Below are positions 10,046 through 37,491 of a DNA stretch of 55,177 bases, in pieces (the stretch's first letter is position 1; every line of letters starts with the position of its first letter). The notes beneath the pieces are model-generated. The model saw nothing but the letters and a program-made list of their open reading frames with translations, had not been told where the DNA came from and searched no databases. The position numbers were made by a program, and so were the translations under genes. This stretch comes from a virus (lineage: Duplodnaviria > Heunggongvirae > Uroviricota > Caudoviricetes): IMG/VR virus record IMGVR_UViG_2541047719_000008; one strand, written 5' to 3'.

Positions 10046-10195
10046 CGGAATTGAGCAACACCCTAAATTTGGGTATTACCTCGTTAAAGATACTGTATTT
10101 ATGAACAGTGTATCCTTGATAACTATTAAAAATCGCAGTAAGTTCATCCTGCATCAACGAAAAGGGAGTGCAGTCCCGCTCGTGGATAAAAATTT

Positions 10196-11023
10196 GTGGA
10201 GAAACCAATGAATCAGTTGCTTGTAATTGATGGCGTTTCTGTGCGCCAGTACTTCGAATCTAACTACTGTCTTAACGACCTTCAGAAAGCTGCTCTTCTT
10301 GCCGCTGGTGAGAATCGCTCCTCCCGTTCGCTGGAAGTTCACGAGTTTATGCGTCGTCCTGAAACGAAGGCTCTTGTGGAATTATTGGAAGAAGAAACTA
10401 CGGGAGATTCCCGTAGTATTCCTGTCATCACCATTCAGGGGCGCAATGGTGGGACGTATGTCTGTAAAGAGCTGGTCTATGCATATGCAATGTGGATCAG
10501 CCCGGCATTCAGCTTAAAAGTGATACGTACTTTTGATGCGCTTCATAATTCATCACCAGAAGAAACCACATCCGACAAAATTAAATCCGGGGTCATTCTG
10601 CTTGAATCAGCAGCAAAGACTCTAAATCTGTCAAACTCCTCGAAACTTGGTGCATACCAGAAATTATCAAAGGTAGCTGGTCTTCCTGAACTTATGCCGA
10701 TCTATGCCATTGATGCACCTGCTGATGCGCCAGATGGTTCAAGCCGCCCTACGCTGTCGCTGAGTGCACTGCTGAAGCAGTATGGTATCCGCCTGACGGC
10801 TAATCAGGCATATCACCAGATGGCGAAGCTGGGGATCGTTGAACAACGCGAACGATACAGTCGTACCGCGATTAACAACATCAAAAAATTCTGGTCGCTG
10901 ACCGCGAAAGGCTGCATGTTCGGCAAGAACATCACCAGTCCTGCAAATCCGCGCGAGACGCAGCCGCATTTCTTCGAATCCCGATTCCCTGAGCTGTTAA
11001 AGCTGCTCGATACCGTTCATTGA
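10196..11023 (+). CDS. KilA-N domain antirepressor-like protein
   Basis: N-terminal LVIDGVSVRQYFESNYCLNDLQKAA resembles KilA-N; typical nin-region gene. Confidence 0.45.
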   Translation: MEKPMNQLLVIDGVSVRQYFESNYCLNDLQKAALLAAGENRSSRSLEVHEFMRRPETKALVELLEEETTGDSRSIPVITIQGRNGGTYVCKELVYAYAMWISPAFSLKVIRTFDALHNSSPEETTSDKIKSGVILLESAAKTLNLSNSSKLGAYQKLSKVAGLPELMPIYAIDAPADAPDGSSRPTLSLSALLKQYGIRLTANQAYHQMAKLGIVEQRERYSRTAINNIKKFWSLTAKGCMFGKNITSPANPRETQPHFFESRFPELLKLLDTVH

Positions 11024-13421: not shown

Positions 13422-13720
13422 AAAATTCCTTAATACTGATAACTTGGCGCACTATACACACGTTCCTGAAGAAAGCTATAGTTTTTTGATGGGGTTGAAG
13501 ATGGCTGGATGTCTAAAATAAACATTGCTTCATATGTTCAACTATGCGTTAATGATTGCGTCGGTTTGAAGAACAGACGATATACGAAGTAGTTTACTAA
13601 AGCAGTTCTCATTTCAGGTGTTATTCACTTATTCCTTCTTTGAGTCTCTCCAATTAAGTACGAAGTCGTTTCTGTTATACAAGCCATTTATGCCGAAAGG
13701 CTCAAGTTAAGGAATGTAGA

Positions 13721-13936
13721 ATGTCAAATAAAATGACTGGTTTAGTAAAATGGTTTAACGCTGATAAAGGTTTTGGCTTTATTTCTCCTGTTGATGGTAG
13801 TAAAGATGTGTTTGTGCATTTTTCTGCGATTCAGAATGATAATTATCGAACCTTATTTGAAGGTCAAAAGGTTACCTTCTCTGTAGAGAGTGGTGCTAAA
13901 GGTCCTGCAGCAGCAAATGTCATAATTACTGATTAA
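13721..13936 (+). CDS. cspB: Cold shock protein CspB-like
   Basis: 71 aa [38 protein letters not shown]...; canonical RNP1/RNP2 motifs; long AT-rich leader upstream. Confidence 0.8.
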
Positions 13937-14217
13937 AATTCATAGTTTGTCTGTATACGATAACGAAGAAGGCTGATGCCTGAGTGGAGATACAGACAGA
14001 GTGGTGAATATTGGATCTCTTTAATAAATAGTAAGGAGGTCCAATACATGAAACAATGGCCAGCATATTTGGCAATAACTTAATCAGGAAAAGTATGCTA
14101 ACCATTGTGGTGAAGTGCAGGTTTGCTGCATGAATAGTTTTACAGCAGAAGCTAACTGCTGGCATAGCAAAACAAAGTGCGTAAGTGGATGACTCCCACA
14201 AAAAGTACCACAATATT

Positions 14218-16809: not shown

Positions 16810-17172
16810 ATTAATATTAAATCGGATTATTTTTAGCGCTGAATGTGAAATTTAAATAAAAAGGACTCTTCCATGAGTCAAAATCCTTGAAATCTTAAGG
16901 GTAAGATAAAAGGTCATTAGACAGAATGACACGTTTTATTAATAAATAAAGCTATTGTTTCATTCGTGTGTTTTTCTTTACAAAAGTAATCCTTGCTATG
17001 GTTGGTTAATCATGCGTTAATGGTGTTCTGGTTTGTTACAAAATTATCTGAAGCAGTCATTGTTATAAATTTATTATTTGTACCTCTTGAGATTTCCTTG
17101 TTGGTTTTTCTCTCTGATATTTTTTTTCGGACCATTCTGCCCAAGGGCTAACTTCTTCAAAAGGTAATAATG

Positions 17173-17385
17173 ATGTCTAACAAAATGACTGGTTTAGTGA
17201 AATGGTTTAACCCTGAAAAAGGTTTTGGTTTCATCACGCCGAAAGATGGTAGCAAAGATGTGTTTGTCCATTTCTCAGCTATTCAGAGCAACGATTTCAA
17301 AACGTTAACTGAGAATCAGGAAGTCGAATTTGGTATTGAGAACGGACCTAAAGGCCCCGCGGCTGTTCATGTAGTGGCACTTTGA
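17173..17385 (+). CDS. cspI: Cold shock protein CspI-like
   Basis: [45 protein letters not shown]...; near-identical to CspI by eye. Confidence 0.85.
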
Positions 17386-17590
17386 GGTAGAAAATATTAC
17401 AAACCATATTCACTTTAGATGCCCGTGTTGCCATGGTTCTCAGTATAGAACATCATCTTTTGATGTTTCTGACAGGAATCCTTTCGGGGCAAAATGTATC
17501 TTTTGTAAATCAATGATGATTACATTTGATAATATTTCACAATACTTAAATGTTAGCCGTCTGTCGTTAGATTTAAGAAAGTGAAAATGA

Positions 17591-19180: not shown

Positions 19181-19349
19181 GAGGTTGTCCCGTATTCTGT
19201 GTTGCTGATTTGTATTGTCTGAAGTTGTTTTTACGTTAAGTTGATGCGGATCAATTAATACGATACCTGCGTCATAATTGATTATTTGACGTGGTTTGAT
19301 GGCGTACACGCACGTTGTGATATGTAGATGATAATTATTATCATTTTTC

Positions 19350-19416
19350 GGGTCCTTTCCGGCGATCCGACAGGTTACGGGGCGGCGACCTCGCGGTTTT
19401 TCGCTATTTATGAGAT
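19350..19416. other. Prophage cos site (cosQ-cosN-cosB), cosN = GGGCGGCGACCT
   Basis: GGGTCCTTTCCGGCGATCCGACAGGTTACG + GGGCGGCGACCT + CGCGGTTTTTCGCTATTTATGAG is the lambda cos sequence almost base for base, just upstream of Nu1. Confidence 0.85.
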
Positions 19417-25729: not shown

Positions 25730-25975
25730 ATGGGATTGTTTACGACCCGCCAGTTACTCGGTTATACCGAACAAAAAGTTAAATTTCGTGCGCTGTTTCT
25801 GGAGCTGTTTTTCCGCCGTACGGTGAATTTCCATACCGAAGAGGTGATGCTGGACAAAATTACCGGAAAAACGCCGGTGGCGGCCTATGTCTCCCCGGTT
25901 GTTGAAGGAAAAGTGCTGCGTCATCGTGGTGGTGAAACCCGCGTGTTGCGTCCGGGCTACGTCAAGCCGAAGCAC
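25730..25975 (+). pseudogene. E: Major capsid protein E, N-terminal fragment (interrupted by the inserted element)
   Basis: First ~82 codons match lambda gpE up to RPGYVKPKH, then the frame runs into unrelated sequence and stops at 26005. Confidence 0.85.
25965..25975. other. Left junction core repeat (attL-like) AGCCGAAGCAC
   Basis: 11-bp sequence at the point where E homology ends; an imperfect copy AGCCGAAACAC lies where E homology resumes (36698-36708). Confidence 0.55.
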
Positions 25976-26137
25976 TTAGCATGGCTTTCTGAGGCTTTCG
26001 TGTAGTTGCTGGTTTTTACACTTAATCTTTTGATAATAAAGAGTAAGTTTATCTGGCGCTTTCACTGGATTTTCCTCGTTATCTGTGTGTTGCAATCATC
26101 TCTGTATTGCAGCTTGTATTGCTTTTTGGGGCTAAAA

Positions 26138-27373
26138 ATGGCTGGCGAGAACAAACTGAGCGACAAAGCACTTAAAGGATATCTGGGGAAACCTAGAGAA
26201 AAGCAGATCACCATTGCTGATGGAAAGGGGCTTTCTATTCGTGTGAGTACCAAGGGGGCTGTGAGCTTTGTTTTCTTCTACAGGTTAGCAGGTGGCCGGG
26301 CTGCTCCGGTCTGGCTAACGTTGGGTAAATATCCTGATATGTCACTCAAACAGGCAAGGGAAAAGCGCGACGAGTGCCGTGGTTGGTTGGCTGACAAACG
26401 TGATCCGCGTATTCAGATTAAGATTCAGGCTGAAGAACGCTTAAAGCCGGTCACAGTGGAGGATGCACTAAATTACTGGTATGAAAATTACTGTAAGGTG
26501 CGTCGTAAAACTCATGCTGTAACGCTTGGCAGATTTCGAAAGCATATCTTTCCCTATATCGGTCATTTGCCCGTAAATGACACTCACCTATATGAATGGC
26601 TGGACTGTTTTGACCGAATTAAACGTAATGCACCAGTTATGGCGGCGTATGTTTTTTCTGACACTAAATTAGCTCTTCGTTTTTGTCGGGTACGCCAGTA
26701 CGCGACGTGTGATGCTTTAAAGGATTTGCGCATGAGTGATGTGGGGCAGATTGCAGGTAAGCGGGATCGGGTTCTGGATGAAGCCGAACTGGGCCAGCTC
26801 TGGAAGGCAATTTTTGTCGAGCCTGATTTAAAACTAATGTCTGAATACACGCGAAAAATGTTTGTGCTTTGTACAGTATTTGGATGTCGAATGAGTGAAG
26901 CCCGATTATCAGAATGGAGCGAATGGGATCTAGAAAGTTGGGTTTGGACTGTACCGAAAGATCACTCAAAAACTGGTGTTGAAATTGTCAGGCCAGTACC
27001 TGAAATTCTACGGCAGTGGGTAACGGATGTTCACGAAGAGACAAAACATACTGGTTATGTGCTGGGAAGTCTGCGAATTAGAGAAAGCGTAAGCAAGATT
27101 GGGGGGAAAATCGGTAAACGTTTGGGCCATGAAAAACAATGGTCACTACACGACCTTAGAAGAACGCTATCTACTCATCTAAGTGATCTCGGTGTTGAAT
27201 TTTATGTAGTAGAACAACTGTTAGGCCATGCGCTACCTGGCGTGGCAGGTGTTTACAACCGGAGTAAGTTTATGGCTAAAAAACTGGATGCTCTGGAACT
27301 CTGGACTACATATCTCAATAGCATCGCAGCTGCTGATTCAAAAGTGACAATCCTCAAACAAAAGGCTGGTTAG
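26138..27373 (+). CDS. int: Tyrosine integrase, P4-type
   Basis: N-terminal LSDKALKGYLGKP...GKGLSIRVS (P4-integrase N-domain) and C-terminal catalytic HDLRRT ... GH...Y motifs; start taken at MAGENK rather than the upstream ORF start at 26006. Confidence 0.85.
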   Translation: MAGENKLSDKALKGYLGKPREKQITIADGKGLSIRVSTKGAVSFVFFYRLAGGRAAPVWLTLGKYPDMSLKQAREKRDECRGWLADKRDPRIQIKIQAEERLKPVTVEDALNYWYENYCKVRRKTHAVTLGRFRKHIFPYIGHLPVNDTHLYEWLDCFDRIKRNAPVMAAYVFSDTKLALRFCRVRQYATCDALKDLRMSDVGQIAGKRDRVLDEAELGQLWKAIFVEPDLKLMSEYTRKMFVLCTVFGCRMSEARLSEWSEWDLESWVWTVPKDHSKTGVEIVRPVPEILRQWVTDVHEETKHTGYVLGSLRIRESVSKIGGKIGKRLGHEKQWSLHDLRRTLSTHLSDLGVEFYVVEQLLGHALPGVAGVYNRSKFMAKKLDALELWTTYLNSIAAADSKVTILKQKAG

Positions 27374-27374
27374 C

Positions 27375-27596
27375 ATGAAAAAAATGGCAATTGTTGATAA
27401 AAAGGGGCTGGAGTACATTCCTAACATTGACCGAATGATCCGTGAGAAAGAATGTCGGGAGCTAACCACTCTTGCGAACAGCACACGCTGGAAGCTTGAA
27501 AAGGAGGGGAAATTCCCCAAGCGAATCAAAATCGGATCTACGGCGGTGGCTTATAGACTCTCTGAGATTCAAGCTTGGATAAGAGGTGAATGGTAA
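27375..27596 (+). CDS. alpA: AlpA-family transcriptional regulator/excisionase
   Basis: 73 aa; REKECRELTTLANSTRWKLEKEGKFPKRIKIG...AYRLSEIQAWI matches the AlpA pattern; directly follows int. Confidence 0.75.
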   Translation: MKKMAIVDKKGLEYIPNIDRMIREKECRELTTLANSTRWKLEKEGKFPKRIKIGSTAVAYRLSEIQAWIRGEW

Positions 27597-27622
27597 GTTA
27601 GGGAGGTATTCCTCCCTATATC

Positions 27623-28306
27623 TTACAGGAAATTTTTTAAATCAGGGTTTTTTCCAAATGCGCTCTTATAATATACTGTTGCAATCTCGTTAAAAATAGT
27701 TTTTATATCATCGGTAACCACTATTGTTGCTACGCGCAAATCTTTTTGATATTCATTTAAATCTGGAGGGGTATAGTCCAATAGCGTTGATTTATCCAAG
27801 ATTAAATGTTCTAACATGGCATAGCGCTCAATCAATGTTTTATAAAAATGATATTGATTTTCACTGTTAGCATGTGCACAGTTTATTGCAAGTAAATACG
27901 TTATTTCATTATCTAGATGTGCACGGACAAGGCTTGTATAGGTTTTTTTACGATCTAGATCAAAGGGATGGTATCCAGCATTTTCATCAATGAACTTCAA
28001 TAGATGATATAATATTCTGAAGTAGCTTCCAAAAACAGCATCATGATTGTGCATCAGTGTATTAGTGTCTTTTAAAGAAACCAATCCATTCATCATTTTA
28101 TTAATTAACTCTGAGTAATTTGATTTTTTTCTAAGATCATTTAGAGCATTGTTATGTTGAGATAACATGAGAGAAAATGTTGATTCAAAAGATGATTGCT
28201 TTTTAGCAATTAATGCAACTAACACTGCTGTGCAAGTCCCGAGTGCCACGAAGAAATTTATAATGTTTGATGCAGTGAATACAGCATCGTCAGGAGTTGG
28301 AGTCAT
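27623..28306 (-). CDS. AT-rich cargo gene: hypothetical membrane-anchored protein, candidate abortive-infection/defence factor
   Basis: 227 aa on the opposite strand to int-alpA; one N-terminal hydrophobic helix; markedly AT-rich compared with its neighbours; no confident family assignment. Confidence 0.5.
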   Translation of the reverse strand: MTPTPDDAVFTASNIINFFVALGTCTAVLVALIAKKQSSFESTFSLMLSQHNNALNDLRKKSNYSELINKMMNGLVSLKDTNTLMHNHDAVFGSYFRILYHLLKFIDENAGYHPFDLDRKKTYTSLVRAHLDNEITYLLAINCAHANSENQYHFYKTLIERYAMLEHLILDKSTLLDYTPPDLNEYQKDLRVATIVVTDDIKTIFNEIATVYYKSAFGKNPDLKNFL

Positions 28307-28338
28307 TTGAATATCCTATTCAATAAAAATTAAAAAAA

Positions 28339-28533
28339 TTAGCCTTTAGGTTCTATACCTTTACGGCGAAGCTCAGCACGAACTAATTCTTTAATCCAAT
28401 TGGCCAAGCTCATTCCTTCCTGAGCTGCTGATTCAGCCATCTGTTCTTTGAGTTCAGGATTGATTCGGATCTGAAACGCAGGGGCTTTGCCGGCTCCTTT
28501 TGGCTGCTTATCTCTTTGAATTGTAGTTGACAT
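28339..28533 (-). CDS. Ribbon-helix-helix (CopG/Arc-type) DNA-binding protein
   Basis: 64 aa; APAFQIRINPELKEQMAESAAQEGMSLANWIKELVRAEL is a classic RHH beta-strand plus two helices. Confidence 0.65.
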   Translation of the reverse strand: MSTTIQRDKQPKGAGKAPAFQIRINPELKEQMAESAAQEGMSLANWIKELVRAELRRKGIEPKG

Positions 28534-28578
28534 GTGTGTACCTATTGCTTAGCATCAGTGTTGAATAGGTACACACAT
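28532..28578. promoter_or_regulatory. Perfect 15-bp inverted repeat (candidate operator) at the RHH gene start
   Basis: ATGTGTGTACCTATT ... 17 bp ... AATAGGTACACACAT, overlapping the RHH start codon, in the divergent intergenic region. Confidence 0.5.
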
Positions 28579-28669
28579 TAACATGATGTTATACCTATAA
28601 ACAACGCCCTAGGGTGCTCGCAACACACCTAGGGCGTCTAACCACAAACCGTTAACTGGAGTAACGACT

Positions 28670-29035
28670 ATGGCTGGAACACAGCATACCCAAACTCACC
28701 CTAAATTTATATACATCTTTCTGGCGCTACATCGCGATCGCATAGCAGATGGAGCAACTACGGTACATGTAGCCGCTGACACGCTGGTTGATGCGCGCAA
28801 GATGGTTAAGGAGATGGGCTATACTGCGGCTTTCTGGAAAGGGCGGGAAGAAAACACGCTGTTTATTCAGAAATGTGAAAACAATTTCATCTGGCGTTTT
28901 ATCGCCCTGAGTACGGCACAACCGCGCGTGATTACCATCGAGGCCACCAGCGAACAGGAAGCCCGCCAGCAATCCCCAACTGGCTGCGTGATGATATTCG
29001 CCGCCCGTATTCGTCAGGAGGTGTGCCATGAATGA
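28670..29035 (+). CDS. Hypothetical protein (first gene of the rightward operon of the element)
   Basis: 121-aa ORF; no motif recognised; true start may be internal. Confidence 0.4.
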   Translation: MAGTQHTQTHPKFIYIFLALHRDRIADGATTVHVAADTLVDARKMVKEMGYTAAFWKGREENTLFIQKCENNFIWRFIALSTAQPRVITIEATSEQEARQQSPTGCVMIFAARIRQEVCHE

Positions 29036-29252
29036 TCTTTATTTTAAAGTGCTGACACATGCTGAAAACGCGCTCGTTTGTGGCAAAAATATGCGAGAAA
29101 TCTTATCAACCTGGCTTGATGGGACAACAAATGCGGAACACGATGAACGGGATGCTAATTTAGCTGGAGCGTTAATTACGTTACTTGATCCTGTCATCAA
29201 AGAGCTGGATGAAGCTATAAAAATACACGACCAGAGCTATACCGGAGAATAA
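29028..29252 (+). CDS. Hypothetical protein
   Basis: 74-aa ORF overlapping the upstream stop. Confidence 0.4.
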   Translation: MNDLYFKVLTHAENALVCGKNMREILSTWLDGTTNAEHDERDANLAGALITLLDPVIKELDEAIKIHDQSYTGE

Positions 29253-29255
29253 AAA

Positions 29256-29543
29256 ATGAAAAATAAATTTTCTGGCTTTATTGCCAGCGGTCAAACTCAT
29301 TCAAAAATCAGCCTTGGGGATATTTTCAAAGATAGCTATGGCTATCGGGTAAAGATTATTTCGGTTGATGATCGTCGTGTCTCTTATTTGCGTGATGGTT
29401 ATGATTTTGAATGTGTTATGCCGCGTCAGCAGTTCGAAAGAGATTTCATTCTGGTAAAAAATTGCAAGACAGATAATCAGAGGCGTGCCGCAGGCTATAT
29501 CCGTAAAATTCGGGCAATGTTAGTTGCCGGAGGTAACAAATGA
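29256..29543 (+). CDS. Hypothetical protein
   Basis: 95-aa ORF immediately preceding and overlapping the primase start. Confidence 0.4.
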   Translation: MKNKFSGFIASGQTHSKISLGDIFKDSYGYRVKIISVDDRRVSYLRDGYDFECVMPRQQFERDFILVKNCKTDNQRRAAGYIRKIRAMLVAGGNK

Positions 29544-31360
29544 AACGTGCTCCGAACTTAAAATACCAACCGCGCGACAAAATGACGGAAGTCATCATTT
29601 TTGCTGGCAGTGATGCCTGGAGCCATGCAAAAGAATGGAATGAATGGGCAGGTAAGCATATTGCAGCAGATGATACACCACCAGTCATTCTGGGTACGGA
29701 ACAACTGGAAAACCTGGATGATATGCAAATTATCGATGAAGGCCGTCATTATGTGCGTGTTTATCGTGCCGGAAAGATTGCAGAGAAAAGTCTGACGAAG
29801 GTTGCGACATTACTTGCTATTGCAGGCGTAAAGGAAGCACGTTGTTACCGTAGCTTTGTTGATCGAGAGCCTGAAGACTGGACTCCGCGCCTTGTCGGCC
29901 TAAAAGCTGAAGCGGAGCATGGGGAAAGTCTGGTGATTGAACTGCCAGTGAAGAAGGCAGAGCGCAAAAATGACGAGCGTGCTTCATCTTTGGCGTTGAA
30001 TCAGATGGGGGCCAGCCAGCGCGGTGAAGTTCTCCTTGCACATTACGGCGGCGAACTGGCAATCAATGCCGACTCTGACACCGTTCATCATTACAACGGC
30101 GTTGTATGGGAGCCGGTTCAGGATAAAGAGTTACAGCGTGCTATGGCGCAGATTTTCATTGATGCGGAGATCAGCTATTCGCAGAACGCCATTAAATCGG
30201 CGGTAGATACCATGAAGTTAAGTTTGCCTGTAATGGGGAATACAGCCCGTAACCTGATTGGATTCAGTAACGGGGTATTTGATACCAGAACTGGTAATTT
30301 TCGGGAGCATAACAAAAACGACTGGTTGTTAATTGCCAGTGAATTACCTTTCAGCCCACCAGCAGAGGGGGAAACGCTGGCAACACATGCGCCGAATTTC
30401 TGGAAGTGGTTGCGCCGTTCGGTGGCTGAGAATGACCGCAAGGCAGATCGCGTACTGGCGGCATTATTCATGGTGCTGGCGAACCGGTACGACTGGCAGT
30501 TATTCATTGAGGTAACAGGGCCGGGGGGAAGTGGTAAAAGTGTGATGGCGGAGATTTGCACCATGCTGGCGGGTAAGGCGAATACAGTATCAGCAAGCAT
30601 GAAGGCGCTGGAAGATGCAAGGGAACGTGCGTTAGTGGTTGGCTTTTCGCTGATTATCATGCCGGATATGACCCGCTACGCTGGTGATGGGGCAGGGATT
30701 AAGGCCATTACAGGCGGTGACAAGGTGGCAATTGACCCGAAACACAAAGCCCCCTATTCAACGCGTATTCCGGCAGTAGTGCTGGCGGTTAACAATAACG
30801 CCATGTCATTCAGTGACCGCAGCGGGGGGATCTCACGTCGTCGGGTGATATTCAATTTTTCGGAAGTTGTACCGGAGAACGAACGCGATTCGATGCTGGC
30901 GGAAAAAATAGAAGGTGAGCTGGCGGTAGTGATTCGCCATCTGCTTACACGGTTTGCTGATCAGGACGAAGCCAGACGCCTGTTATATGAGCAGCAGAAA
31001 TCTGAAGAAGCACTGGCGATAAAGCGAGAGGGGGATTCGCTGGTGGACTTCTGCGGCTATCTCATGGCATCGGTAATGTGTGATGGCCTGTTAGTGGGTA
31101 ATGCTGAAATTGTGCCATTCAGCCCACGCAGGTATCTCTATCATGCCTATCTGGCTTATATGAGGGCACATGGGTTTGGTAAACCTGTAACACTGACGCG
31201 CTTCGGTAAAGATATGCCGGGGGCAATGGCGGAATATGGCAGGGAGTATATGAAACGGAAAACGAAGCACGGTTTGCGTTCAAACGTGACACTGACGGAG
31301 GAATCAGAAGACTGGATGCCATCATGTGTATCGGTCACTAATGACGATAGCAAAAATTAA
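29540..31360 (+). CDS. Primase/helicase replication initiator (P4-alpha / PICI Pri-Rep type)
   Basis: 606 aa with Walker A GPGGSGKS in the C-terminal half (D5/P4-primase-type NTPase); followed directly by an iteron array. Confidence 0.8.
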   Translation: MKRAPNLKYQPRDKMTEVIIFAGSDAWSHAKEWNEWAGKHIAADDTPPVILGTEQLENLDDMQIIDEGRHYVRVYRAGKIAEKSLTKVATLLAIAGVKEARCYRSFVDREPEDWTPRLVGLKAEAEHGESLVIELPVKKAERKNDERASSLALNQMGASQRGEVLLAHYGGELAINADSDTVHHYNGVVWEPVQDKELQRAMAQIFIDAEISYSQNAIKSAVDTMKLSLPVMGNTARNLIGFSNGVFDTRTGNFREHNKNDWLLIASELPFSPPAEGETLATHAPNFWKWLRRSVAENDRKADRVLAALFMVLANRYDWQLFIEVTGPGGSGKSVMAEICTMLAGKANTVSASMKALEDARERALVVGFSLIIMPDMTRYAGDGAGIKAITGGDKVAIDPKHKAPYSTRIPAVVLAVNNNAMSFSDRSGGISRRRVIFNFSEVVPENERDSMLAEKIEGELAVVIRHLLTRFADQDEARRLLYEQQKSEEALAIKREGDSLVDFCGYLMASVMCDGLLVGNAEIVPFSPRRYLYHAYLAYMRAHGFGKPVTLTRFGKDMPGAMAEYGREYMKRKTKHGLRSNVTLTEESEDWMPSCVSVTNDDSKN

Positions 31361-31373
31361 ACTTATGGAATAA

Positions 31374-31596
31374 CTGTTCACCACTGTTCACCCTGTCATA
31401 AATATCTTTTATATCAGTATATTATAGGGTGAACAGTTATTTATGAACTGTTCACCAAACTATTCACTGTTCACCTTTTTGATTGTTTATTGAGCTTCAA
31501 GGGTGAACAGTGGTGAACAGTTGGTGAATAGTTTTTGTGAAACTGTTCACCCATTAACATTATGAATTAAAAGAGAAAATATCAAAAGGTGAACAG
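31374..31596. repeat. Iteron array, candidate replication origin of the element
   Basis: At least nine copies of the 9-mer CTGTTCACC/GGTGAACAG in both orientations (e.g. 31374, 31384, 31428, 31448, 31467, 31502, 31512, 31543, 31588) in AT-rich non-coding DNA. Confidence 0.7.
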
Positions 31597-31647
31597 GTGA
31601 AGGGTTAAAACGCAAAAATTTTAATTTACTGCTGTGAGATAAAGCCT

Positions 31648-31893
31648 ATGACAGCGAAGCACACAAAAAAATCACAATCGCACGCCCTTGATTTGACGGA
31701 ACACTGGTTAAGGGTGTCGATAAAAATCATCGACCGCAACGCCGGGGAAGGATACGCGAAAGCACATCCCGAACTGATTAGCGCATTCATGACAACGGCG
31801 GCTGCAAACTTTGCCACTCTGACCGAACGGGAGATTGCTGAAGCGGAGGAAGTGGCAACAATCAATATTAAGTCCGGAGAGCAGGCAGCATGA
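31648..31893 (+). CDS. Hypothetical protein
   Basis: 81-aa ORF between the origin and ssb. Confidence 0.4.
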   Translation: MTAKHTKKSQSHALDLTEHWLRVSIKIIDRNAGEGYAKAHPELISAFMTTAAANFATLTEREIAEAEEVATINIKSGEQAA

Positions 31894-32339
31894 CGGCGCA
31901 AATATCAGTTTACGGGCGGTTGGTGGACGACCCGCAGACAAAACAGACCAGCAAGGGCACCCCCATGACGCTGGCGCGTATGGCGGTATCACTGCCCTGC
32001 AGTCAGTCGGATGACGGTCAGGCGACGATGTGGTTATCTGTCCTGGCGTTTGGCAGACAAGCCGACGCGCTGGCAAAGCATCACAAAGGCGAACTCCTGA
32101 GCGTGGCGGGTAATATGCAGGTGAGCCAGTGGACTGGACAGAACGGTGAAACGCGGCAGGGCTGGCAGGTTATCGCAGACAGCGTAATCAGTGCGCGAAC
32201 GGTGCGACCGGGCGGCAAAAAAGGTCAACAGGGTCAGGCTACTGACGCACTGAACAGAGCAAAACAACAGGCAGATCAGCAAGGAAGCCATCCACCAGTG
32301 GGAGATAATGAACAATGGGGAGATGATATTCCGTTTTAA
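31890..32339 (+). CDS. ssb: Single-stranded DNA-binding protein
   Basis: OB-fold-like N-terminus, Gly/Gln-rich linker and the canonical acidic tip DDIPF at the C-terminus. Confidence 0.75.
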   Translation: MTAQISVYGRLVDDPQTKQTSKGTPMTLARMAVSLPCSQSDDGQATMWLSVLAFGRQADALAKHHKGELLSVAGNMQVSQWTGQNGETRQGWQVIADSVISARTVRPGGKKGQQGQATDALNRAKQQADQQGSHPPVGDNEQWGDDIPF

Positions 32340-32550
32340 ATATTGCCAATAAAAAAGGCCGGAAAAAAATAAATTTTCCGGCATGCTACATAAATCCCGA
32401 CCAAAGGGAGTGAAGATATTAACACTAATTATCCGCGCTGAAGTTGTTATCCCAAAACTTTATACAACATTGCACTCGGTTGCATGTATTCGCATGACAA
32501 ATATCGGTGATAGCATATATCCACAATTATTTTTAATGAATGCAAAGAGG

Positions 32551-33597
32551 ATGCGTATGGTTGATTTATATTCGCCTACCCAGCTTGTACAGGTGGTTAA
32601 TGCTGTAGATGTACAAAAACAACTAAATGCGTTGTTTACCAGTTTGTTTTTTACTCGCTCGGTAATGTTTGAATCGCGCGATATTATTCTTGATACAATC
32701 GACGATCCAAATATCCCAATTGCAGCGTTTTGTTCTCCTATGGTGGGTAGTAAAGTTTCACGTGACGAAGGGTACGAATCAAAAACAATTCGTCCAGGCT
32801 ATATGAAGCCGAAAAGCAGCATTGATCCAAATAAGTTAGCTGTGCGCCCTGTTGGTGTATCACCTGAGCAATACAATGCTTTTGGAGCGCGTAATATTAA
32901 AGTTAAACAGGCGATTGTAAATCAGGCTAAAGCTATTCGTGCACGTATTGAATGGCTTGCCGTTCAGGCAATCACAACGGGGAAAAATATCATTGAGGGC
33001 GATGGTATTGAACGTTATGAGCTGGACTGGAATATTAAACCACAAAATATCATCACTCAGTCTGGCGGTGCTGAGTGGTCAGGTAAGGATAAAGAAACTT
33101 TTGATCCAAATGATGATATTGAGAGCTACGCAGAATTTAGTGAGGGCGTCACTAATATTATCATTATGGGCGGTAATGTATGGAAGAAATACCGTTCATT
33201 CAGAGCGATAAAAGAGGCTCTGGATACCCGTCGTGGTTCTAATTCCGAACTGGAAACGGCCCTTAAAGACCTTGGTGATTCGGTGAGTTTTAAAGGGTAT
33301 ATGGGCGATGTTGCGATTGTTGTTTACAGCGGGCGTTATACCGACGAGGACGGAACAGAAAAACATTTCCTTGATCCTGATTTGATGGTGCTTGGCAATA
33401 CGGCTCTTCAGGGGATTGTCGCCTATGGCGGTATTCAGGATCCGGAGCTAATCCGAATGGGGCTGACTAAAGCCGAACTTGCACCGAAAAACTATATTGT
33501 GCCTGGTGATCCGGCTATTGAATATGTGCAGACACATTCAGCACCACAGCCAATACCGGCCCGCATCAATCGTTTTGTTACCGTTCGCATTGGCTAA
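32551..33597 (+). CDS. Major capsid protein, lambda E-like paralog encoded by the inserted element
   Basis: Full-length homology to the split prophage E gene (RPGYMKPKS vs RPGYVKPKH; LDTRRGSNSELETALKDLG; YSGRYTDEDG; GDPAIEY). Start at MRMVDLY with AAAGAGG RBS; the tool ORF starts at 32383. Confidence 0.8.
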   Translation: MRMVDLYSPTQLVQVVNAVDVQKQLNALFTSLFFTRSVMFESRDIILDTIDDPNIPIAAFCSPMVGSKVSRDEGYESKTIRPGYMKPKSSIDPNKLAVRPVGVSPEQYNAFGARNIKVKQAIVNQAKAIRARIEWLAVQAITTGKNIIEGDGIERYELDWNIKPQNIITQSGGAEWSGKDKETFDPNDDIESYAEFSEGVTNIIIMGGNVWKKYRSFRAIKEALDTRRGSNSELETALKDLGDSVSFKGYMGDVAIVVYSGRYTDEDGTEKHFLDPDLMVLGNTALQGIVAYGGIQDPELIRMGLTKAELAPKNYIVPGDPAIEYVQTHSAPQPIPARINRFVTVRIG

Positions 33598-33606
33598 GGG
33601 GGAGCA

Positions 33607-33948
33607 ATGGCTACTCATTACACTGAACTCATGGCTGGCACTGAAGCACTGGTGACTACGCTGGGGATATTTTCAGCTAATAAAGGGGTAATTCCTGCAT
33701 TTACGCCACTGATGCAGGAAGATGCAACAGGTGCACTGGTAGTATGGGATGGTTCGAGCGTAGGTAAAGCGGTTTATGTTTCCGCTGTACAAATCGACAC
33801 CGCGAAAAAAACACAGGCTCAGGTCTATAAGACAGGTGTCTTAAATGTTGATGCTCTGAACTGGCCTGAGTCTGTTAAAGAACTGTCAGTAAAGGTTGCA
33901 GCGTTTGTTGGCTCAGGTATTTCTGTTCAGCCGCTGGCTCGTGTGTAA
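33607..33948 (+). CDS. Head decoration protein, lambda D-like paralog encoded by the inserted element
   Basis: 113 aa sharing TPLM, VVWDG, YK(T/S)G, NWPESV and AF(V/A)GS blocks with the prophage D protein. Confidence 0.75.
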   Translation: MATHYTELMAGTEALVTTLGIFSANKGVIPAFTPLMQEDATGALVVWDGSSVGKAVYVSAVQIDTAKKTQAQVYKTGVLNVDALNWPESVKELSVKVAAFVGSGISVQPLARV

Positions 33949-33959
33949 AGGGGGATACA

Positions 33960-34343
33960 ATGCAGAATGATTACAATGACCTTAAGCCAATTGCCGAAAT
34001 GATGTACCCGAATCAAGCTGTAGAGGAATTAAAAGCTATCGCTGACAAAATGTGTTTAAGCGAGCGCCTTGTTGATATGAATCAGGTGATGGAAATTACA
34101 ACCCTGAGTCGTCGTACACTGCTAAACCTTGAGGCTAGTGGAGAGTTCCCGGAGCGTGTGCAGGTTACGGAAGGGCGTAAGGCCTGGTATTTAAGTGAAG
34201 TGATCGACTGGATAAATAATATTCCTCGCGCTTCTGAATATTGCCGCGTACCTGTCCCAAAAAAGCCAGATGCGGCGCTATGCCTCAAGATTGAGCGTGT
34301 ACGCCGCAATGCACGGGATGGTCGCTATAAGCTGATTGGTTGA
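33960..34343 (+). CDS. AlpA-like HTH DNA-binding protein
   Basis: MEITTLSRRTLLNLEASGEFPERVQVTEGRKAWYLSEVIDWI matches the AlpA-type HTH; precedes the element's cos site. Confidence 0.5.
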   Translation: MQNDYNDLKPIAEMMYPNQAVEELKAIADKMCLSERLVDMNQVMEITTLSRRTLLNLEASGEFPERVQVTEGRKAWYLSEVIDWINNIPRASEYCRVPVPKKPDAALCLKIERVRRNARDGRYKLIG

Positions 34344-34369
34344 TGAAATTAGGGCCTGCTCTGGCTGGC

Positions 34370-34434
34370 GGGTCCTTTCCGGCGATCTGACAGGCTACGG
34401 GGCGTCAGGCGCGCGGGTTTTCGCTATTTATGAG
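34370..34434. other. Second, element-borne cos site with variant cosN (GGGCGTCAGGCG)
   Basis: GGGTCCTTTCCGGCGATCTGACAGGCTACG + GGGCGTCAGGCG + CGCGGGTTTTCGCTATTTATGAG aligns to the prophage cos at 19350-19416, with five substitutions in the 12-nt cohesive-end segment. Confidence 0.7.
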
Positions 34435-34535
34435 CATTTTAAGGGGACTGGTGGTGGTTTTGTTGTTCGCTATATCTGTATGAATAATAAGAGAAAAATA
34501 CAATCAATACACCAACCTGAAACAGTAATTAAGTT

Positions 34536-35087
34536 GTGGTATCAATGAAATTACACCTGATGAACAAAAAAAACATGGCAAAAAGTTGCCGTGTAAGCGC
34601 CACTGCGTTCGATAAGTGGGGAGTGATTCCCGTCGAGCGTAAGGGCCGTGAGGCGTTCTATGATGTTGCCAGTGTAATAGATAATCGGGTTAACAATGCA
34701 ATCAGCCAGATTACAAACGAAACGGGCGATATTGATGACGATGAACTTTTACGCGTCAGGATCAGATTACTGACAGCACAGGCAGAGGCGCAGGAGCTTA
34801 AAAACGAGCGCGAACGCGGCGACGTTATTGATACAGAGTTTTGTATGTATGTTCTTTCCAAACTGGCGAGTCAGATTTCATCTATCATGGACAGCCTGCC
34901 GCTTACCATGCAAAGGCGCTTCCCACAGATGACTCCGGCTATGCTGGATGGACTTAAAAAGGAAGTGGCTAAAGCCTGTAATGCCAGTGCCGGCGTTGCT
35001 GACAACCTCCCACAGATACTGGCTGATTATCTGATGGAAAGTACAGGAAACGTACCGGATAAGTTGCAGCTGAATAAGGATAAGTAA
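34536..35087 (+). CDS. Terminase small subunit, Nu1-like paralog encoded by the inserted element
   Basis: SATAFDKWGVIPVERKGREAFYDV ... YVLSKLASQISSIMDSLPLTMQRRFPQMTP parallels the prophage Nu1 (SVQAFDKWGVPPVERRGREVFYDV ... ALSKLAMALSSTLDSIPLSMQRQFPDLTP). Confidence 0.8.
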   Translation: MVSMKLHLMNKKNMAKSCRVSATAFDKWGVIPVERKGREAFYDVASVIDNRVNNAISQITNETGDIDDDELLRVRIRLLTAQAEAQELKNERERGDVIDTEFCMYVLSKLASQISSIMDSLPLTMQRRFPQMTPAMLDGLKKEVAKACNASAGVADNLPQILADYLMESTGNVPDKLQLNKDK

Positions 35088-35098
35088 CGTAGTACGCT

Positions 35099-35374
35099 AT
35101 GACTGAATCCGAACTACTGAAAGTAATCTGCCATGCTGGTGGAGTCAGCCACCAGCATGACGAACAGGCCACGCAGCCGGGCAGTGTCACCGCTGAAAAT
35201 TACGCTCGTGTGGTTGCTGAGGTTATGTGGCGTGACGGTATAGAACTGAACGGACAGGATTGCTTAGTCATCCGCACCAAAGTGCTGGCTATACTGGCAG
35301 CTAGGCGGAGGCAGGGACAACGCCAGAACGTTGCATCGTACCAGTGGAAGAAGCCTGACAGACTGCGGCGATAA
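35099..35374 (+). CDS. Hypothetical protein
   Basis: 91-aa ORF after the Nu1-like gene; no motif recognised. Confidence 0.35.
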   Translation: MTESELLKVICHAGGVSHQHDEQATQPGSVTAENYARVVAEVMWRDGIELNGQDCLVIRTKVLAILAARRRQGQRQNVASYQWKKPDRLRR

Positions 35375-35776
35375 CTCTTTGATTTTCTCGACGGCCCCAA
35401 AATGGGCCTTACCATAGCCAGCTAATAAATGAGCAAGCCTCAAAAGTGAGGTTTGTGGCCGTTTGGCCTATTCATATGCTAACTCGTTGATATTCCTGAC
35501 GACGCAAATTTACGCCTTGTGGCTGGTAGTCGAATTGCAAATTTGCAACTCGACTATGAAACTACAGGTAGTTTGGGTAGTAAAAGCAACACACTGATTT
35601 TGGGGCTTCTTCGCGATACCTAATATTATGGTATCGGTGGAAGAGATATCGTTTCTCATAGGTTAGCACCGAGGGCGGAGTTCCGCCCTCATCGAAAAAT
35701 TGCTTACGAGTCGTCAAAATAAATTAATCGACTGAGTATAATGATTAACTAATTGCTCGTGTTACTTCATTATACG

Positions 35777-36538
35777 TTATTTCCCATCTTTAAGGTTTAA
35801 CCAAGTGTTAATTAAAAAAAGAGCCATTGAGCCTGATAAATTTACTGCAAGTTCGGCATGCCTTGGGGATGGCTTAATTGATGAGCTGTTCGTTCCATGT
35901 GCATCACCGAGTTTATTACGAAGAGTACCTAACCCATTTACAACTGCAGAACAACCGCCGAGAATTTGTTTGAAGATATTTTCAGTATGTTGGTCGGCAG
36001 ATAGGTTAAGTTCTTTTGAAAGAGTTTTATAAAGCTCTGACATTTCAATATTTTTATTATTATACTGAATGCCCATATCATCAAGAATGTGTTTGCAAAC
36101 TGTTTCAAGAAGTGTTCTTGCGGAGGTTATCGCACCATCCGGATCTGTATGGCGCCGTTCAAGTGCTTTTATCCAAACGGCGTGGACTCCATCCTCGTTA
36201 AACTTTCTTAATACATCAGATATGTCTTCATCCGCTGGAGCTTTATTTTTCCCTTCTAGATAGTCCAGCATCGGCTGAAATGCCTTATAAATCAAATCTC
36301 TCCGGGGGGCATACTTTTCAGTCTTTTTTATAAATCCCCAAAATTCTTTTAGTGAGCGATTAGTTCTCACAAACTCTGGTAATAGCTGATGTAAAGGAGG
36401 ATTTTGTAAGAAATATGTTCTTAGAAGCAAATAATCATTATTAGCTTCATCCTGGGCTCCTGTAGCTCTTGCAATTAGTATGTTTTGAAGCGCTACTGCG
36501 CGCTCTAGGTCATTTTGAAGGGTATCTATAATATTCAT
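35777..36538 (-). CDS. AT-rich cargo gene: Abi_C-like (abortive infection C-terminal domain) protein
   Basis: 253 aa; C-terminal GTLRNKLGDAHG resembles the conserved R-N-x-x-G-x-A-H-G signature of Abi_C domains; opposite strand and AT-rich. Confidence 0.5.
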   Translation of the reverse strand: MNIIDTLQNDLERAVALQNILIARATGAQDEANNDYLLLRTYFLQNPPLHQLLPEFVRTNRSLKEFWGFIKKTEKYAPRRDLIYKAFQPMLDYLEGKNKAPADEDISDVLRKFNEDGVHAVWIKALERRHTDPDGAITSARTLLETVCKHILDDMGIQYNNKNIEMSELYKTLSKELNLSADQHTENIFKQILGGCSAVVNGLGTLRNKLGDAHGTNSSSIKPSPRHAELAVNLSGSMALFLINTWLNLKDGK

Positions 36539-36697
36539 AACAAATCTTTATTCACTTCATTTGTGGGTTGATAATTGAATGGTTTGTACATTGATTTCTG
36601 TGTATTGCAGTGTGTATTGCAACATAGCCATTCAGGTAGAGATTATGCTCTATTTTTCCTCTTATATCATTCACATACTTACACCATTGACTCATGT

Positions 36698-36708
36698 AGC
36701 CGAAACAC
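36698..36708. other. Right junction core repeat (attR-like) AGCCGAAACAC
   Basis: Imperfect copy of the left junction 11-mer, at the exact point where the E reading frame resumes. Confidence 0.55.
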
Positions 36709-37491
36709 GAATTTAATTACCAGCAGGCGGTTGAGCGCCTTCCTGGTGAAGATCCATCTCAACTGAACGATCCGGCTTACCGCCGTCTGCGTATCATTAC
36801 CGATAACCTCAAACAGGAAGAGCACGCGATTGTCCAGGTGGAAGAAATGCAGGCGGTAAATGCTGTGTTGTATGGCAAATACACCATGGAAGGAGACCAG
36901 TTCGAGAAAATTGAGGTCGATTTTGGCAGGTCGACGAAGAATAACATCACACAGGGTAGCGGTAAGGAATGGTCAAAACAGGATCGTGACACGTTCGATC
37001 CTACACATGATATTGACCTTTACTGCGACCAGGCCAGCGGTCTTGTGAATATTGCCATCATGGACGGTACCGTCTGGCGTCTGCTGAATGGTTTTAAGCT
37101 GTTTCGCGAAAAACTGGATACCCGTCGCGGTTCAAATTCACAACTCGAAACGGCAGTGAAAGATCTGGGCGCAGTGGTGTCCTTCAAGGGGTATTACGGC
37201 GATCTGGCTATTGTTGTGGCGAAAACGTCTTATATAGCAGAAGACGGTATCGAAAAACGTTATCTTCCAGATGGCATGCTGGTCCTGGGGAATACTGCTG
37301 CAGATGGGATCCGTTGTTACGGAGCCATTCAGGATGCGCAGGCGTTTTCCGAAGGTGTGGTGGCTTCTTCCCGTTATCCGAAACACTGGCTGACGGTGGG
37401 GGATCCTGCCCGTGAATTTACCATGACGCAGTCCGCACCGCTGATGGTGTTGCCGGACCCGGATGAGTTTGTGGTGGTACAGGTGAAATAA
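36700..37491 (+). pseudogene. E: Major capsid protein E, C-terminal fragment
   Basis: Frame opens after a TAG at 36697-36699 and reads PKHEFNYQQAVERLPGEDP ... DPAREFTMTQSAPLMVLPDPDEFVVVQVK, matching lambda gpE from about residue 80 to the end. Confidence 0.85.

What the first reader, a model, noticed from the sequence alone, without database searches (positions are those of the whole stretch)
35527..35690. Nested 30-bp palindrome and GC-rich hairpin in the ~400-bp non-coding stretch before the Abi_C-like gene
TAGTCGA-ATTGCAAATTTGCAA-CTCGACTA (35527-35556) has a perfectly palindromic core TTGCAAATTTGCAA inside near-perfect outer arms. About 115 bp further on there is a GC-rich hairpin GAGGGCGG-AGTT-CCGCCCTC (35671-35690) with no U-tract. 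The region encodes no ORF, so these are likely a regulator binding site and/or a structured RNA controlling the cargo gene or packaging genes.
Basis: seen in the sequence. Interest (0 to 1): 0.35.

Follow-up and report, generated by a model that had tools for sequence, protein, structure and literature searches.

The report
Conserved palindrome array ending satellite operon
The two hairpin-forming repeats are real and belong to a conserved, undescribed non-coding region that closes the packaging operon of a phage satellite sitting inside a prophage; it does not control the neighbouring Abi gene, and its function is inferred, not shown.

Summary
Both inverted repeats are at the stated coordinates and are not chance. 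The 402-bp gap (35375-35776) lies downstream of two convergent genes, a 91-aa gene (p91) and Abi_C, so it is not "before" Abi_C. The setting is an ~11-kb helper-embedded PICI satellite inserted in the prophage capsid gene E.

The stretch 35480-35690 is conserved at 74-81% identity in 714 of 5426 complete E. coli genomes. It follows a p91 homologue at the right end of PICIs and capsid-forming PICIs that have no Abi_C. Homology stops at the 3' edge of the GC hairpin, where the cargo begins.

It is not the satellite cos site (that is at 34369-34434). It matches no Rfam family and is not a canonical terminator.

The region is built of modules: an IHF consensus plus a variable palindrome. Related modules match an internal segment of phage roi/ant/rha genes at 88-100%. 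The 20-bp heart of the finding's palindrome recurs inside KilA-N antirepressor genes and next to the helper's own KilA-N gene.

The excess palindromes run through their centres, which favours DNA dyads over RNA hairpins. Best reading (confidence 0.4): a cis-acting DNA platform for IHF and dimeric binding proteins. A structured 3'-UTR remains a serious rival.

The parts
35099..35374 (+). p91, a 91-aa gene of unknown function (phrog_1561). Its stop codon TAA (35372-35374) is the first three bases of the first module.
   Evidence: A same-strand homologue lies 88-834 nt upstream of 89 of 94 core copies.
35372..35408 (.). Module M1: IHF consensus (TAACTCTTTGATT on the + strand, which reads WATCAANNNNTTR on the - strand) plus the palindrome GGCCC-CAAAAT-GGGCC (35393-35408).
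   Evidence: The module matches a Rha-family regulator gene of Hafnia phage Meifeng (87% over 39 nt, E = 1e-3).
35434..35468 (.). Two short inverted repeats: CAAGCCTCAAAAGTGAGGTTTG and GGCCGTTTGGCC.
35480..35529 (.). Module M2: IHF consensus TAACTCGTTGATA (35480-35492), the imperfect palindrome CGCAAATTTACG (35503-35514), and GCTGGTAG (35522-35529), which is one base away from the Chi sequence GCTGGTGG present here in most relatives.
35527..35556 (.). The finding's 30-bp palindrome (H2). The conserved heart is GA(G/A)TTGCA-N4-TGCAACTC at 35532-35551.
   Evidence: Seven of its 8 pairs never vary in 44 sequences. The same 20-mer lies inside KilA-N genes and at 10021-10040 in the helper prophage.
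35559..35581 (.). ACTAC / GTAG repeat cluster: AAACTAC, GTAGTTT and GGGTAGT. Most relatives carry 9 extra bases here (GGAAACTAC).
   Evidence: The column opposite G varies C to T in 15 of 43 sequences.
35588..35657 (.). Degenerate third module (AACACACTGATTTT) with two inverted repeats: CGATACC-N9-GGTATCG (35614-35636) and GAAGAGATATCGTTTCTC (35640-35657).
   Evidence: These are helices 6 and 7, which show a few two-sided changes.
35671..35690 (.). The finding's GC-rich inverted repeat (H7). It is the last conserved feature; homology to other PICIs ends at about 35690/35691, where the Abi_C cargo begins.
35691..35776 (-). Segment specific to this cargo, downstream of the Abi_C stop codon. It contains the inverted repeat GTATAATGA ... 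TCATTATAC (35736-35775).
   Evidence: No homology to the Abi_C-less PICIs compared (L002-L004).
35777..36538 (-). Abi_C / AbiJ-like cargo gene, convergent with the satellite operon.
34369..34434 (+). The satellite's own lambda-type cos. It lies outside the finding and is listed because it excludes the cos explanation.
   Evidence: 88% identity over 66 nt to the helper cos at 19349-19414.

Best explanation
The two inverted repeats are dyad-symmetric DNA sites within a conserved non-coding 'right-end array' of E. coli phage satellites (PICIs and capsid-forming PICIs). The array starts at the stop codon of the last late gene (p91). It ends where the variable cargo or the attachment-site arm begins.

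Structure. The array is made of modules, each an IHF-binding consensus next to a short palindrome whose sequence differs from module to module. After the modules comes a more uniform core of about 120-210 bp, which holds the finding's palindrome and GC repeat.

Proposed mechanism (inferred). IHF bends the DNA at the modules. Dimeric DNA-binding proteins occupy the palindromes. Together they form a nucleoprotein block at the end of the satellite's packaging operon. Candidate binding proteins are helper-phage antirepressor-family proteins (Roi / Rha / KilA-N), whose own genes carry the same sequences, or the neighbouring basic protein p91.

Possible roles. Such a block could work as a boundary between the operon and the convergent or variable cargo. 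It could equally work as a decoy or sensor for helper proteins.

Shown: the anatomy, the conservation, the linkage to p91, the similarity to phage roi/ant/rha and KilA-N gene segments, and the through-centre symmetry. Inferred: every binding event and the biological role.
For: Conservation.
- 714 of 5426 complete E. coli genomes carry 35480-35690 at 74-81% identity or better.
- The element always lies at the right end of PICIs or capsid-forming PICIs, with different integration sites and different terminases.
- The core is at least as conserved as the adjacent coding gene: median identity 0.94 against 0.835.

Linkage to p91.
- 89 of 94 core copies follow a p91 homologue.

IHF consensus.
- 45 copies in one orientation in 30.7 kb of representative regions, against 0.47 expected.
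- Two perfect copies 108 bp apart in the window.
- The conserved and variable positions follow the consensus pattern: TAA, four variable bases, then TTGAT.

Link to helper antirepressor genes.
- Modules match only roi / anti-repressor / Rha / KilA genes, in 107 phage records at 88-100% over 28-53 nt.
- The window's M1 matches a Rha-family gene.
- The heart of H2 lies inside KilA-N genes, where it encodes SELQICNS.
- The same 20-mer lies about 175 bp upstream of the helper's own KilA-N gene, which lacks it internally.

DNA rather than RNA.
- The excess of palindromes is at central gaps of 0-2 nt: 58 observed against 21.5 in shuffles. At the loop sizes a hairpin needs (3-4 nt) it is 16 against 11.7.
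- H2 is invariant in sequence, not merely in pairing.
- G.T and A.C mismatches are equally frequent, 85 against 91.
- The window lineage's only change in H2 is an A.C mismatch on the + strand.
Against: - No binding was tested, and there are no transcript data.
- Some features fit RNA on the + strand. C-to-U changes opposite G keep pairing in the ACTAC helix (15 sequences). Two-sided changes occur in helices 1, 6, 7 and 9. In most relatives H7 is followed by a U-rich tail. The fold z-scores are strongly negative.
- Only 26 of 59 p91 loci with enough downstream sequence carry the core, so the core is not obligatory.
- The gap and mismatch statistics are noisy and the sequences are related to one another.
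- The idea that Roi or Rha binds its own gene next to an IHF site rests on my memory of Clerget & Boccard 1996 and Henthorn & Friedman 1995. Neither paper could be opened.
- The model of p91 is of low confidence (pLDDT 58) and p91 has no known relatives.
Confidence: 0.4

Rival explanations
1. Structured RNA. The region is the 3' untranslated end of the satellite late operon (+ strand). It folds into a string of independent hairpins that terminate transcription, protect the mRNA from exonucleases, or act as antisense to helper roi/ant/rha mRNAs, because the modules lie antisense to those genes.
For: - Strong fold z-scores.
- 89.7% of cells are paired, against 33-43% when the partners are slid, and the covariation score exceeds all 500 shuffles.
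- G.U-compatible changes on the + strand in the ACTAC helix and in H6/H7.
- In relatives H7 is a 10-12-bp GC stem followed by TTACTTATTG.
- In the two phage loci inspected (roi of HK629, antirepressor of phi330) the module lies antisense to the gene; modules share one orientation within the arrays.
Against: - No Rfam family matches, even at E <= 10.
- No promoter or canonical terminator is found in the window, and in the window H7 has no U-tract.
- The finding's palindrome shows no informative covariation; its only change breaks the + strand pair.
- The helix AGTAAG/CTTACT is broken in the window lineage.
- The palindrome excess sits at central gaps too small for hairpin loops.
- There is no G.T over A.C bias overall.
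- The tool's own caveat applies: related sequences can exceed the shuffles without any structure.
Confidence: 0.3
2. Recombination joint. The palindromes, with nearby Chi sequences and short stretches of homology to helper genes, mark places where modules and cargo are exchanged. Any conservation reflects spread by recombination rather than a regulatory role.
For: - PICI homology ends exactly at H7, where the cargo starts.
- In the helper prophage, homology to mEp460/SfII-type phages ends at the first base of the H2-like palindrome (query 1-372, which is window 10021).
- Chi occurs at about 0.8-1.2 per kb per strand in these regions; by my own knowledge of E. coli this is several-fold above the genome average.
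- Chi sits immediately 5' of H2 in most relatives.
- The core is tandemly duplicated in four loci.
Against: - Two junctions are anecdotal.
- Palindromes of 20-30 bp are short for hairpin-nuclease attack (my own knowledge).
- The Chi next to H2 is mutated in the window (GCTGGTAG).
- This explanation does not account for the conserved IHF consensus pattern, or for the fact that each module keeps a perfect dyad.
Confidence: 0.15
3. Inert debris. The region consists of decaying fragments of antirepressor genes picked up from helper phages, with no present function.
For: - Modules are homologous to coding segments of roi/ant/rha.
- The - strand of one array keeps an open frame of 18-aa repeats resembling the Rha motif.
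Against: - Only the same segment of about 50 bp is present, repeated in tandem, with sharp edges.
- The dyads are as good as or better than in the phage genes: CCCCCATTGGGGG in the array against CCACCATTGGGGG in HK629 roi.
- The core is as conserved as the neighbouring gene and has no significant match in the phage collection (at E <= 10 only chance-level hits).
Confidence: 0.1
4. Packaging site. The region is the satellite's cos or pac site, recognised by its own small terminase.
For: It lies just downstream of the terS gene, and GGGCGG in H7 resembles the start of the lambda cohesive end.
Against: - A lambda-like cos with cosQ and nicking-site flanks lies upstream of terS at 34369-34434.
- No lambda cohesive-end match with up to 2 mismatches lies in the gap.
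- The same core is shared by satellites with unrelated terminases: Nu1-type, and P27-type with HNH.
Confidence: 0.03

Closest known systems
IHF-linked internal segment of phage rha / roi / ant genes. Rha and Roi proteins block phage growth in IHF-deficient hosts (Henthorn & Friedman 1995; Clerget & Boccard 1996; cited from memory, not read here).
   Same: Nucleotide identity of 88-100% over 28-53 nt between satellite modules and codons of about 38-58 of these genes. Both carry the IHF consensus followed by a short palindrome.
   Different: In phages it is a single copy inside a coding sequence. In satellites it is non-coding, repeated 2-8 times in tandem, antisense to the operon, and joined to a satellite-specific core.
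BIME-1 / RIP elements of E. coli: extragenic REP palindromes flanking an IHF site at operon ends (my own knowledge).
   Same: Extragenic position, at the 3' ends of or between convergent genes. Clusters of short palindromes combined with an IHF site.
   Different: REP similarity was not tested here. These modules are confined to satellites and phage antirepressor genes. No chromosome-wide dispersal was seen.
Lambda cosB and attP: nucleoprotein sites in which IHF bends DNA between protein-binding repeats.
   Same: IHF sites interspersed with protein-binding repeats near the end of a mobile element.
   Different: The satellite's cos and att arm motifs were located elsewhere: 34369-34434, and 36601-36620 with 26103-26122.
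Antisense control of antirepressor genes: P1/P7 C4 RNA and P22 sar (a C4/IsrK pair is present in this helper at 6666-6854).
   Same: The targets would be antirepressor-family genes. The modules are antisense to them if the satellite operon reads through.
   Different: No Rfam match. The complementarity is to an internal coding segment, not to the ribosome-binding region. No transcript is known.
Plasmid centromere arrays such as F sopC: tandem units of about 43 bp, each holding an inverted repeat (my own knowledge).
   Same: Tandem units of about 50 bp, each with one dyad.
   Different: Here the dyads differ in sequence from unit to unit, and no partition genes are present.

Membership tests
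Lambda-type cos site | A cosN nicking sequence with conserved flanks and cosQ, placed upstream of the small terminase gene. | tested here: not met
   No match with up to 2 mismatches in 35375-35776. The homologous cos is at 34369-34434.
Any curated RNA family (Rfam 15) | A score at or above the family's gathering threshold. | tested here: not met
   No hit in the region at gathering thresholds. At E <= 10 there are only eukaryotic noise hits far below threshold.
Intrinsic (Rho-independent) terminator | A GC-rich stem followed directly by a T-run. | tested here: not met
   The scan finds none in the gap. H7 is followed by ATCGAAAAA on the + strand and GGTGCTAAC on the - strand. Relatives have a partly T-rich tail.
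IHF binding site | A match to WATCAANNNNTTR. | tested here: met
   35372-35384 and 35480-35492. There is about 100-fold enrichment in related regions.
IHF binding site | Actual binding and bending by IHF. | not testable with these tools
   Needs EMSA or footprinting.
Rha/Roi-gene internal module | Nucleotide similarity to the segment of rha/roi/ant genes that carries the IHF consensus and palindrome. | tested here: met
   The window's M1 gives 87% over 39 nt, E = 1e-3. Related modules give 88-100% in 107 phage records, under roi / antirepressor / Rha / KilA gene annotations wherever the record is annotated. The finding's own core (H2-H7) has no such match.
Type III toxin-antitoxin RNA repeats | Near-identical tandem repeats immediately upstream of the toxin gene, separated from it by a terminator. 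| tested here: not met
   The region is downstream of Abi_C. The units are only 72-86% alike over 14-39 nt. The element occurs without Abi_C.
tRNA / tmRNA-like attachment remnant | Detectable tRNA or tmRNA structure. | tested here: not met
   ARAGORN finds none in 35000-37000.
Helper-embedded PICI (the context, after Tommasini et al. 2023, PMC10111431) | A satellite integrated in, and co-oriented with, a prophage late gene, with the doubled TGTATTGC motif flanking the attachment site. | tested here: met
   Capsid gene E is split around an int ... Abi_C block. The motif pairs are at 26103/26115 and 36601/36613. The paper was read.
REP / BIME | Similarity to the REP consensus. | not tested
   The resemblance is architectural only.

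The most novel reading that the evidence does not exclude
Phage satellites carry a multi-specific array of short cis-elements copied from the antirepressor-family genes (roi, rha, ant, kilA-N) of many possible helper phages. Each element is an IHF site plus an operator-like dyad. The array would act as a sensor or decoy for those helper proteins or, if transcribed, as a multi-target antisense RNA. Either would be a previously unrecognised channel of satellite-helper cross-talk, sitting beside the cargo hotspot.
Probability: 0.2. Interest if true: 0.8.

Novelty: new variant of a known kind. Interest (0 to 1): 0.5.

Why it matters
Gram-negative PICIs are studied for their integrase, AlpA, primase, Rpp/terminase and cos functions. 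In the papers I could read, the non-coding right end is not mentioned. Here it proves to be conserved about as well as the neighbouring gene and present in roughly one in eight complete E. coli genomes. It lies exactly at the border of the slot where defence genes are carried. It is also built from sequences shared with helper antirepressor genes. If it binds IHF and helper proteins, it would give a handle on two open questions: how satellites sense or blunt their helpers, and what defines the cargo hotspot. If it is only a terminator or stabiliser region, it is still a useful landmark for annotating satellite ends.

Tried and rejected
- cos site: rejected.
- Rfam at gathering and at permissive thresholds: nothing.
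- tRNA or tmRNA: none.
- Promoter/terminator scan: nothing in the gap.
- Three or four 108-bp tandem units: the alignment is weak and only the 5' module is shared.
- p91 function: no Pfam, NCBIfam, PADLOC or PDB relative. The AlphaFold model was too poor (pLDDT 58) to justify a fold search.
- p91 is not Rpp: the Rpp structures are said to be deposited, yet the PDB search gave no hit.
- One-genome-per-species scan for p91: a single Shigella locus, so the family is essentially confined to Escherichia.
- Core against the phage collection: no significant match.
- The core as a decayed KilA-N gene: only the 20-bp palindrome is shared.
- CsrA-sponge idea: only two GGA motifs in the window region (by eye).
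- Literature search by sequence strings: only unrelated papers.
- The two 1990s Rha/Roi papers could not be opened.
- A look for EcCICFT073 in CFT073 landed on the icd prophage instead and was dropped.
- G.T versus A.C strand-bias test: dominated by noise, inconclusive.

Full report
**Observation**

The sequence shows TAGTCGAATTGCAAATTTGCAACTCGACTA at 35527-35556 and GAGGGCGGAGTTCCGCCCTC at 35671-35690, as reported. The repeat finder scores the first as a palindrome with 16-nt arms that are 94% complementary. It scores the second as 9-nt arms that are 100% complementary, 2 nt apart. No T-run follows the GC repeat on either strand.

The 20-bp heart of the palindrome is expected 0.03 times per window and is found twice. 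The whole 402-nt gap folds much better than shuffled sequence, with z = -5.5 on the + strand and -9.0 on the - strand.

**Context**

RefSeq annotation of an identical copy and domain searches show that the window is a lambdoid prophage whose major capsid gene E is split by an ~11-kb satellite. The satellite's genes, in order, are:
- integrase, AlpA-like regulator, putAbiC, Icd-like, DUF4222;
- D5-type primase and SSB;
- its own E-like capsid and D-like decoration genes;
- a second AlpA-like gene;
- a Nu1-type small terminase;
- a 91-aa gene (p91, phrog_1561);
- the 402-bp gap;
- a convergent Abi_C/AbiJ-like gene.

This is the helper-embedded PICI configuration described by Tommasini, Mageeney and Williams (PMC10111431). 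Their doubled TGTATTGC motif is present at 26103/26115 and 36601/36613. The gap is therefore downstream of both flanking genes, not upstream of Abi_C.

**What it is not**

- It is not the packaging site. The helper cos is at 19349-19414, and a homologous satellite cos lies upstream of the satellite terS at 34369-34434.
- No Rfam family matches.
- There is no tRNA-like gene.
- No promoter or canonical terminator is predicted in the gap.

**Conservation**

- Forty-one complete E. coli genomes carry the gap at 99% identity or more.
- 714 of 5426 genomes carry 35480-35690 at 74-81% identity or better.
- Three divergent examples were inspected: a PICI next to clpS, a PICI next to phoQ, and a capsid-forming PICI next to thiM with an HK97-type head module, HNH and P27-type terminase. 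In each the element follows a p91 homologue, and none has Abi_C.
- Alignment shows that homology begins at about 35480 and stops at the 3' edge of the GC repeat. The window's downstream sequence is cargo-specific.
- In 94 copies from viral contigs, 89 have p91 upstream on the same strand.
- The reverse does not hold: only 26 of 59 p91 loci with enough downstream sequence carry the core.
- The core is at least as conserved as the neighbouring coding gene, with median identity 0.94 against 0.835.
- The core has no significant match among 50,697 phage records, and no open paper contains its sequence.

**Anatomy**

Downstream of p91, satellites carry 0.3-0.9 kb of repeated modules of about 50 nt. 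Each module reads as follows:
- TAA, four variable bases, then TTGAT(A/T). On the other strand this is the IHF consensus WATCAANNNNTTR.
- Then TTYCGRAAAC.
- Then a palindrome of 11-14 bp that differs between modules, for example CTGCAATGCAG, CCCCCATTGGGGG, CCTCAATTTGAGG or ACGCAAAATTGCGT.
- Then a purine-rich stretch with TCGG.

The IHF consensus occurs 45 times in one orientation in 30.7 kb, against 0.47 expected. The window has two perfect copies 108 bp apart, the first overlapping the p91 stop codon. The finding's palindrome and GC repeat belong to the more uniform core that follows the modules.

**Link to helper genes**

Individual modules match an internal segment of phage roi, anti-repressor, Ant, KilA and Rha-family genes at 88-100% identity over 28-53 nt, on the opposite strand. 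This holds in 107 phage records and some phage-plasmids, and the matches fall under no other kind of annotated gene.

In HK629 Roi the segment encodes GVIRNPPMVVFEKINNLG, within the Rha-like N-terminal region. The window's first module matches a Rha-family gene of a Hafnia phage.

Separately, the heart of the finding's palindrome, GAGTTGCA-N4-TGCAACTC, occurs in many true prophage contigs inside KilA-N domain genes. There it encodes SELQICNS. In this window's helper it sits at 10021-10040, at the end of rusA. That is about 175 bp upstream of a KilA-N gene that lacks it internally, and just before a LexA-box-like sequence. Beyond those 20 bp the core is not a decayed KilA-N gene.

**DNA or RNA?**

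For RNA on the + strand:
- 89.7% of the cells of a hand-drawn hairpin model are paired, against 33-43% when the partners are slid. The covariation score exceeds all shuffles.
- C-to-U changes opposite G preserve pairing in one helix.
- In most relatives the GC repeat is followed by a partly U-rich tail.

Against RNA and for DNA:
- The finding's palindrome never varies, except for one change in the window lineage. That change gives A.C on the + strand.
- One proposed helix is broken in the window lineage.
- Overall, G.T and A.C mismatches are equally common (a noisy test).
- Among dyads with at least 6 contiguous pairs, the excess over shuffles lies at central gaps of 0, 1 and 2 nt: 20, 21 and 17 observed against 8.0, 7.5 and 6.0. 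At gaps of 3-4 nt, which a hairpin needs, it is 7 and 9 against 5.7 and 6.0. Complementarity running through the centre is what a symmetric DNA site needs and what a hairpin cannot use.
- Palindromes that differ between modules while each stays symmetric can be explained by operators of different specificity. This would mimic RNA covariation.

**Interpretation**

I rank the explanations as follows.

1. A cis-acting DNA platform (confidence 0.4). IHF sites plus dyad sites for dimeric proteins form a block at the end of the satellite's packaging operon. The likely partners are helper antirepressor-family proteins or p91. The role is unresolved: a boundary against convergent or variable cargo, or a decoy or sensor for helper proteins. 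Binding and role are inferred only.
2. A structured 3'-UTR (0.3).
3. A recombination joint (0.15). It is supported by two junctions that coincide with these palindromes and by the Chi density.
4. Inert debris (0.1).
5. A packaging site (0.03).

My recollection that Rha and Roi are harmful to phage growth without IHF, and that IHF and Roi sites lie in roi, fits the module. I could not check it.

**Verdict**

The feature is a real, conserved, apparently undescribed satellite element. Its architecture resembles known IHF-plus-palindrome elements, so I call it a new variant of a known kind. Interest is moderate, because the function remains untested.

Noticed in passing
window 25730-37491: An ~11-kb satellite (int 26006-27373 to about 36690) is inserted in, and co-oriented with, the prophage major capsid gene E. 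The N-terminal fragment is at 25730-26005 and the C-terminal fragment runs to 37491. This is a helper-embedded PICI of the '11capE' kind. Unlike the published 11capE, which is described as lacking terS, it encodes a Nu1-type small terminase.
   Followed up: partly
window 34369-34434 versus 19349-19414: The satellite cos shares cosQ and the nicking-site flanks with the helper cos (88% over 66 nt). Its 12-nt cohesive-end segment, however, is GGGCGTCAGGCG instead of the helper's GGGCGGCGACCT. This raises the question of whether the helper large terminase cuts it.
   Followed up: no
window 35130-35161: Two Chi sequences in inverted orientation (35135-35142 on + and 35149-35156 on -) lie inside the p91 coding sequence and form a 13-bp hairpin. 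Other p91 alleles encode different residues at this position.
   Followed up: no
window 10019-10112: In the helper prophage an H2-like palindrome ends the rusA gene, at the point where homology to mEp460/SfII-type phages stops. It is followed by AACACCCTAAATTTGGGT, which resembles part of the satellite core, and by the LexA-box-like TACTGTATTTATGAACAGTG upstream of a KilA-N gene (10196-11023). This suggests an SOS-controlled antirepressor.
   Followed up: partly
window 27623-28306 and 35777-36538: The satellite carries two abortive-infection-type genes, both on the - strand: a putAbiC near the integrase and an Abi_C/AbiJ-like gene at the right end.
   Followed up: no
window 6666-6854; 13560-13999; 17026-17431: Rfam hits in the helper prophage: an IsrK plus C4 antisense RNA pair inside the Ash-family ORF 6306-7142, and two full-length cspA thermoregulator elements.
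   Followed up: no
L011, L022, L039, L061: The satellite core is duplicated in tandem, with copies about 434 bp apart. The second copy has a degenerate first module.
   Followed up: no
L126 3275-3760 (- strand): The module array keeps an open reading frame of in-frame 18-aa repeats (R-x-P ... I-N-x-L-G), which echoes the Rha/Roi motif. No start codon or gene call supports it.
   Followed up: partly
L003 7300-7450, L107, L139, L146 (right ends of related satellites): Near the attachment-site arm there is a 22-26-bp palindrome of the type CCGATATGGGGATCCCCATATCGG. In several of these elements (e.g. L003, L139, L146) it is flanked by Chi on one side and reverse-Chi on the other.
   Followed up: no
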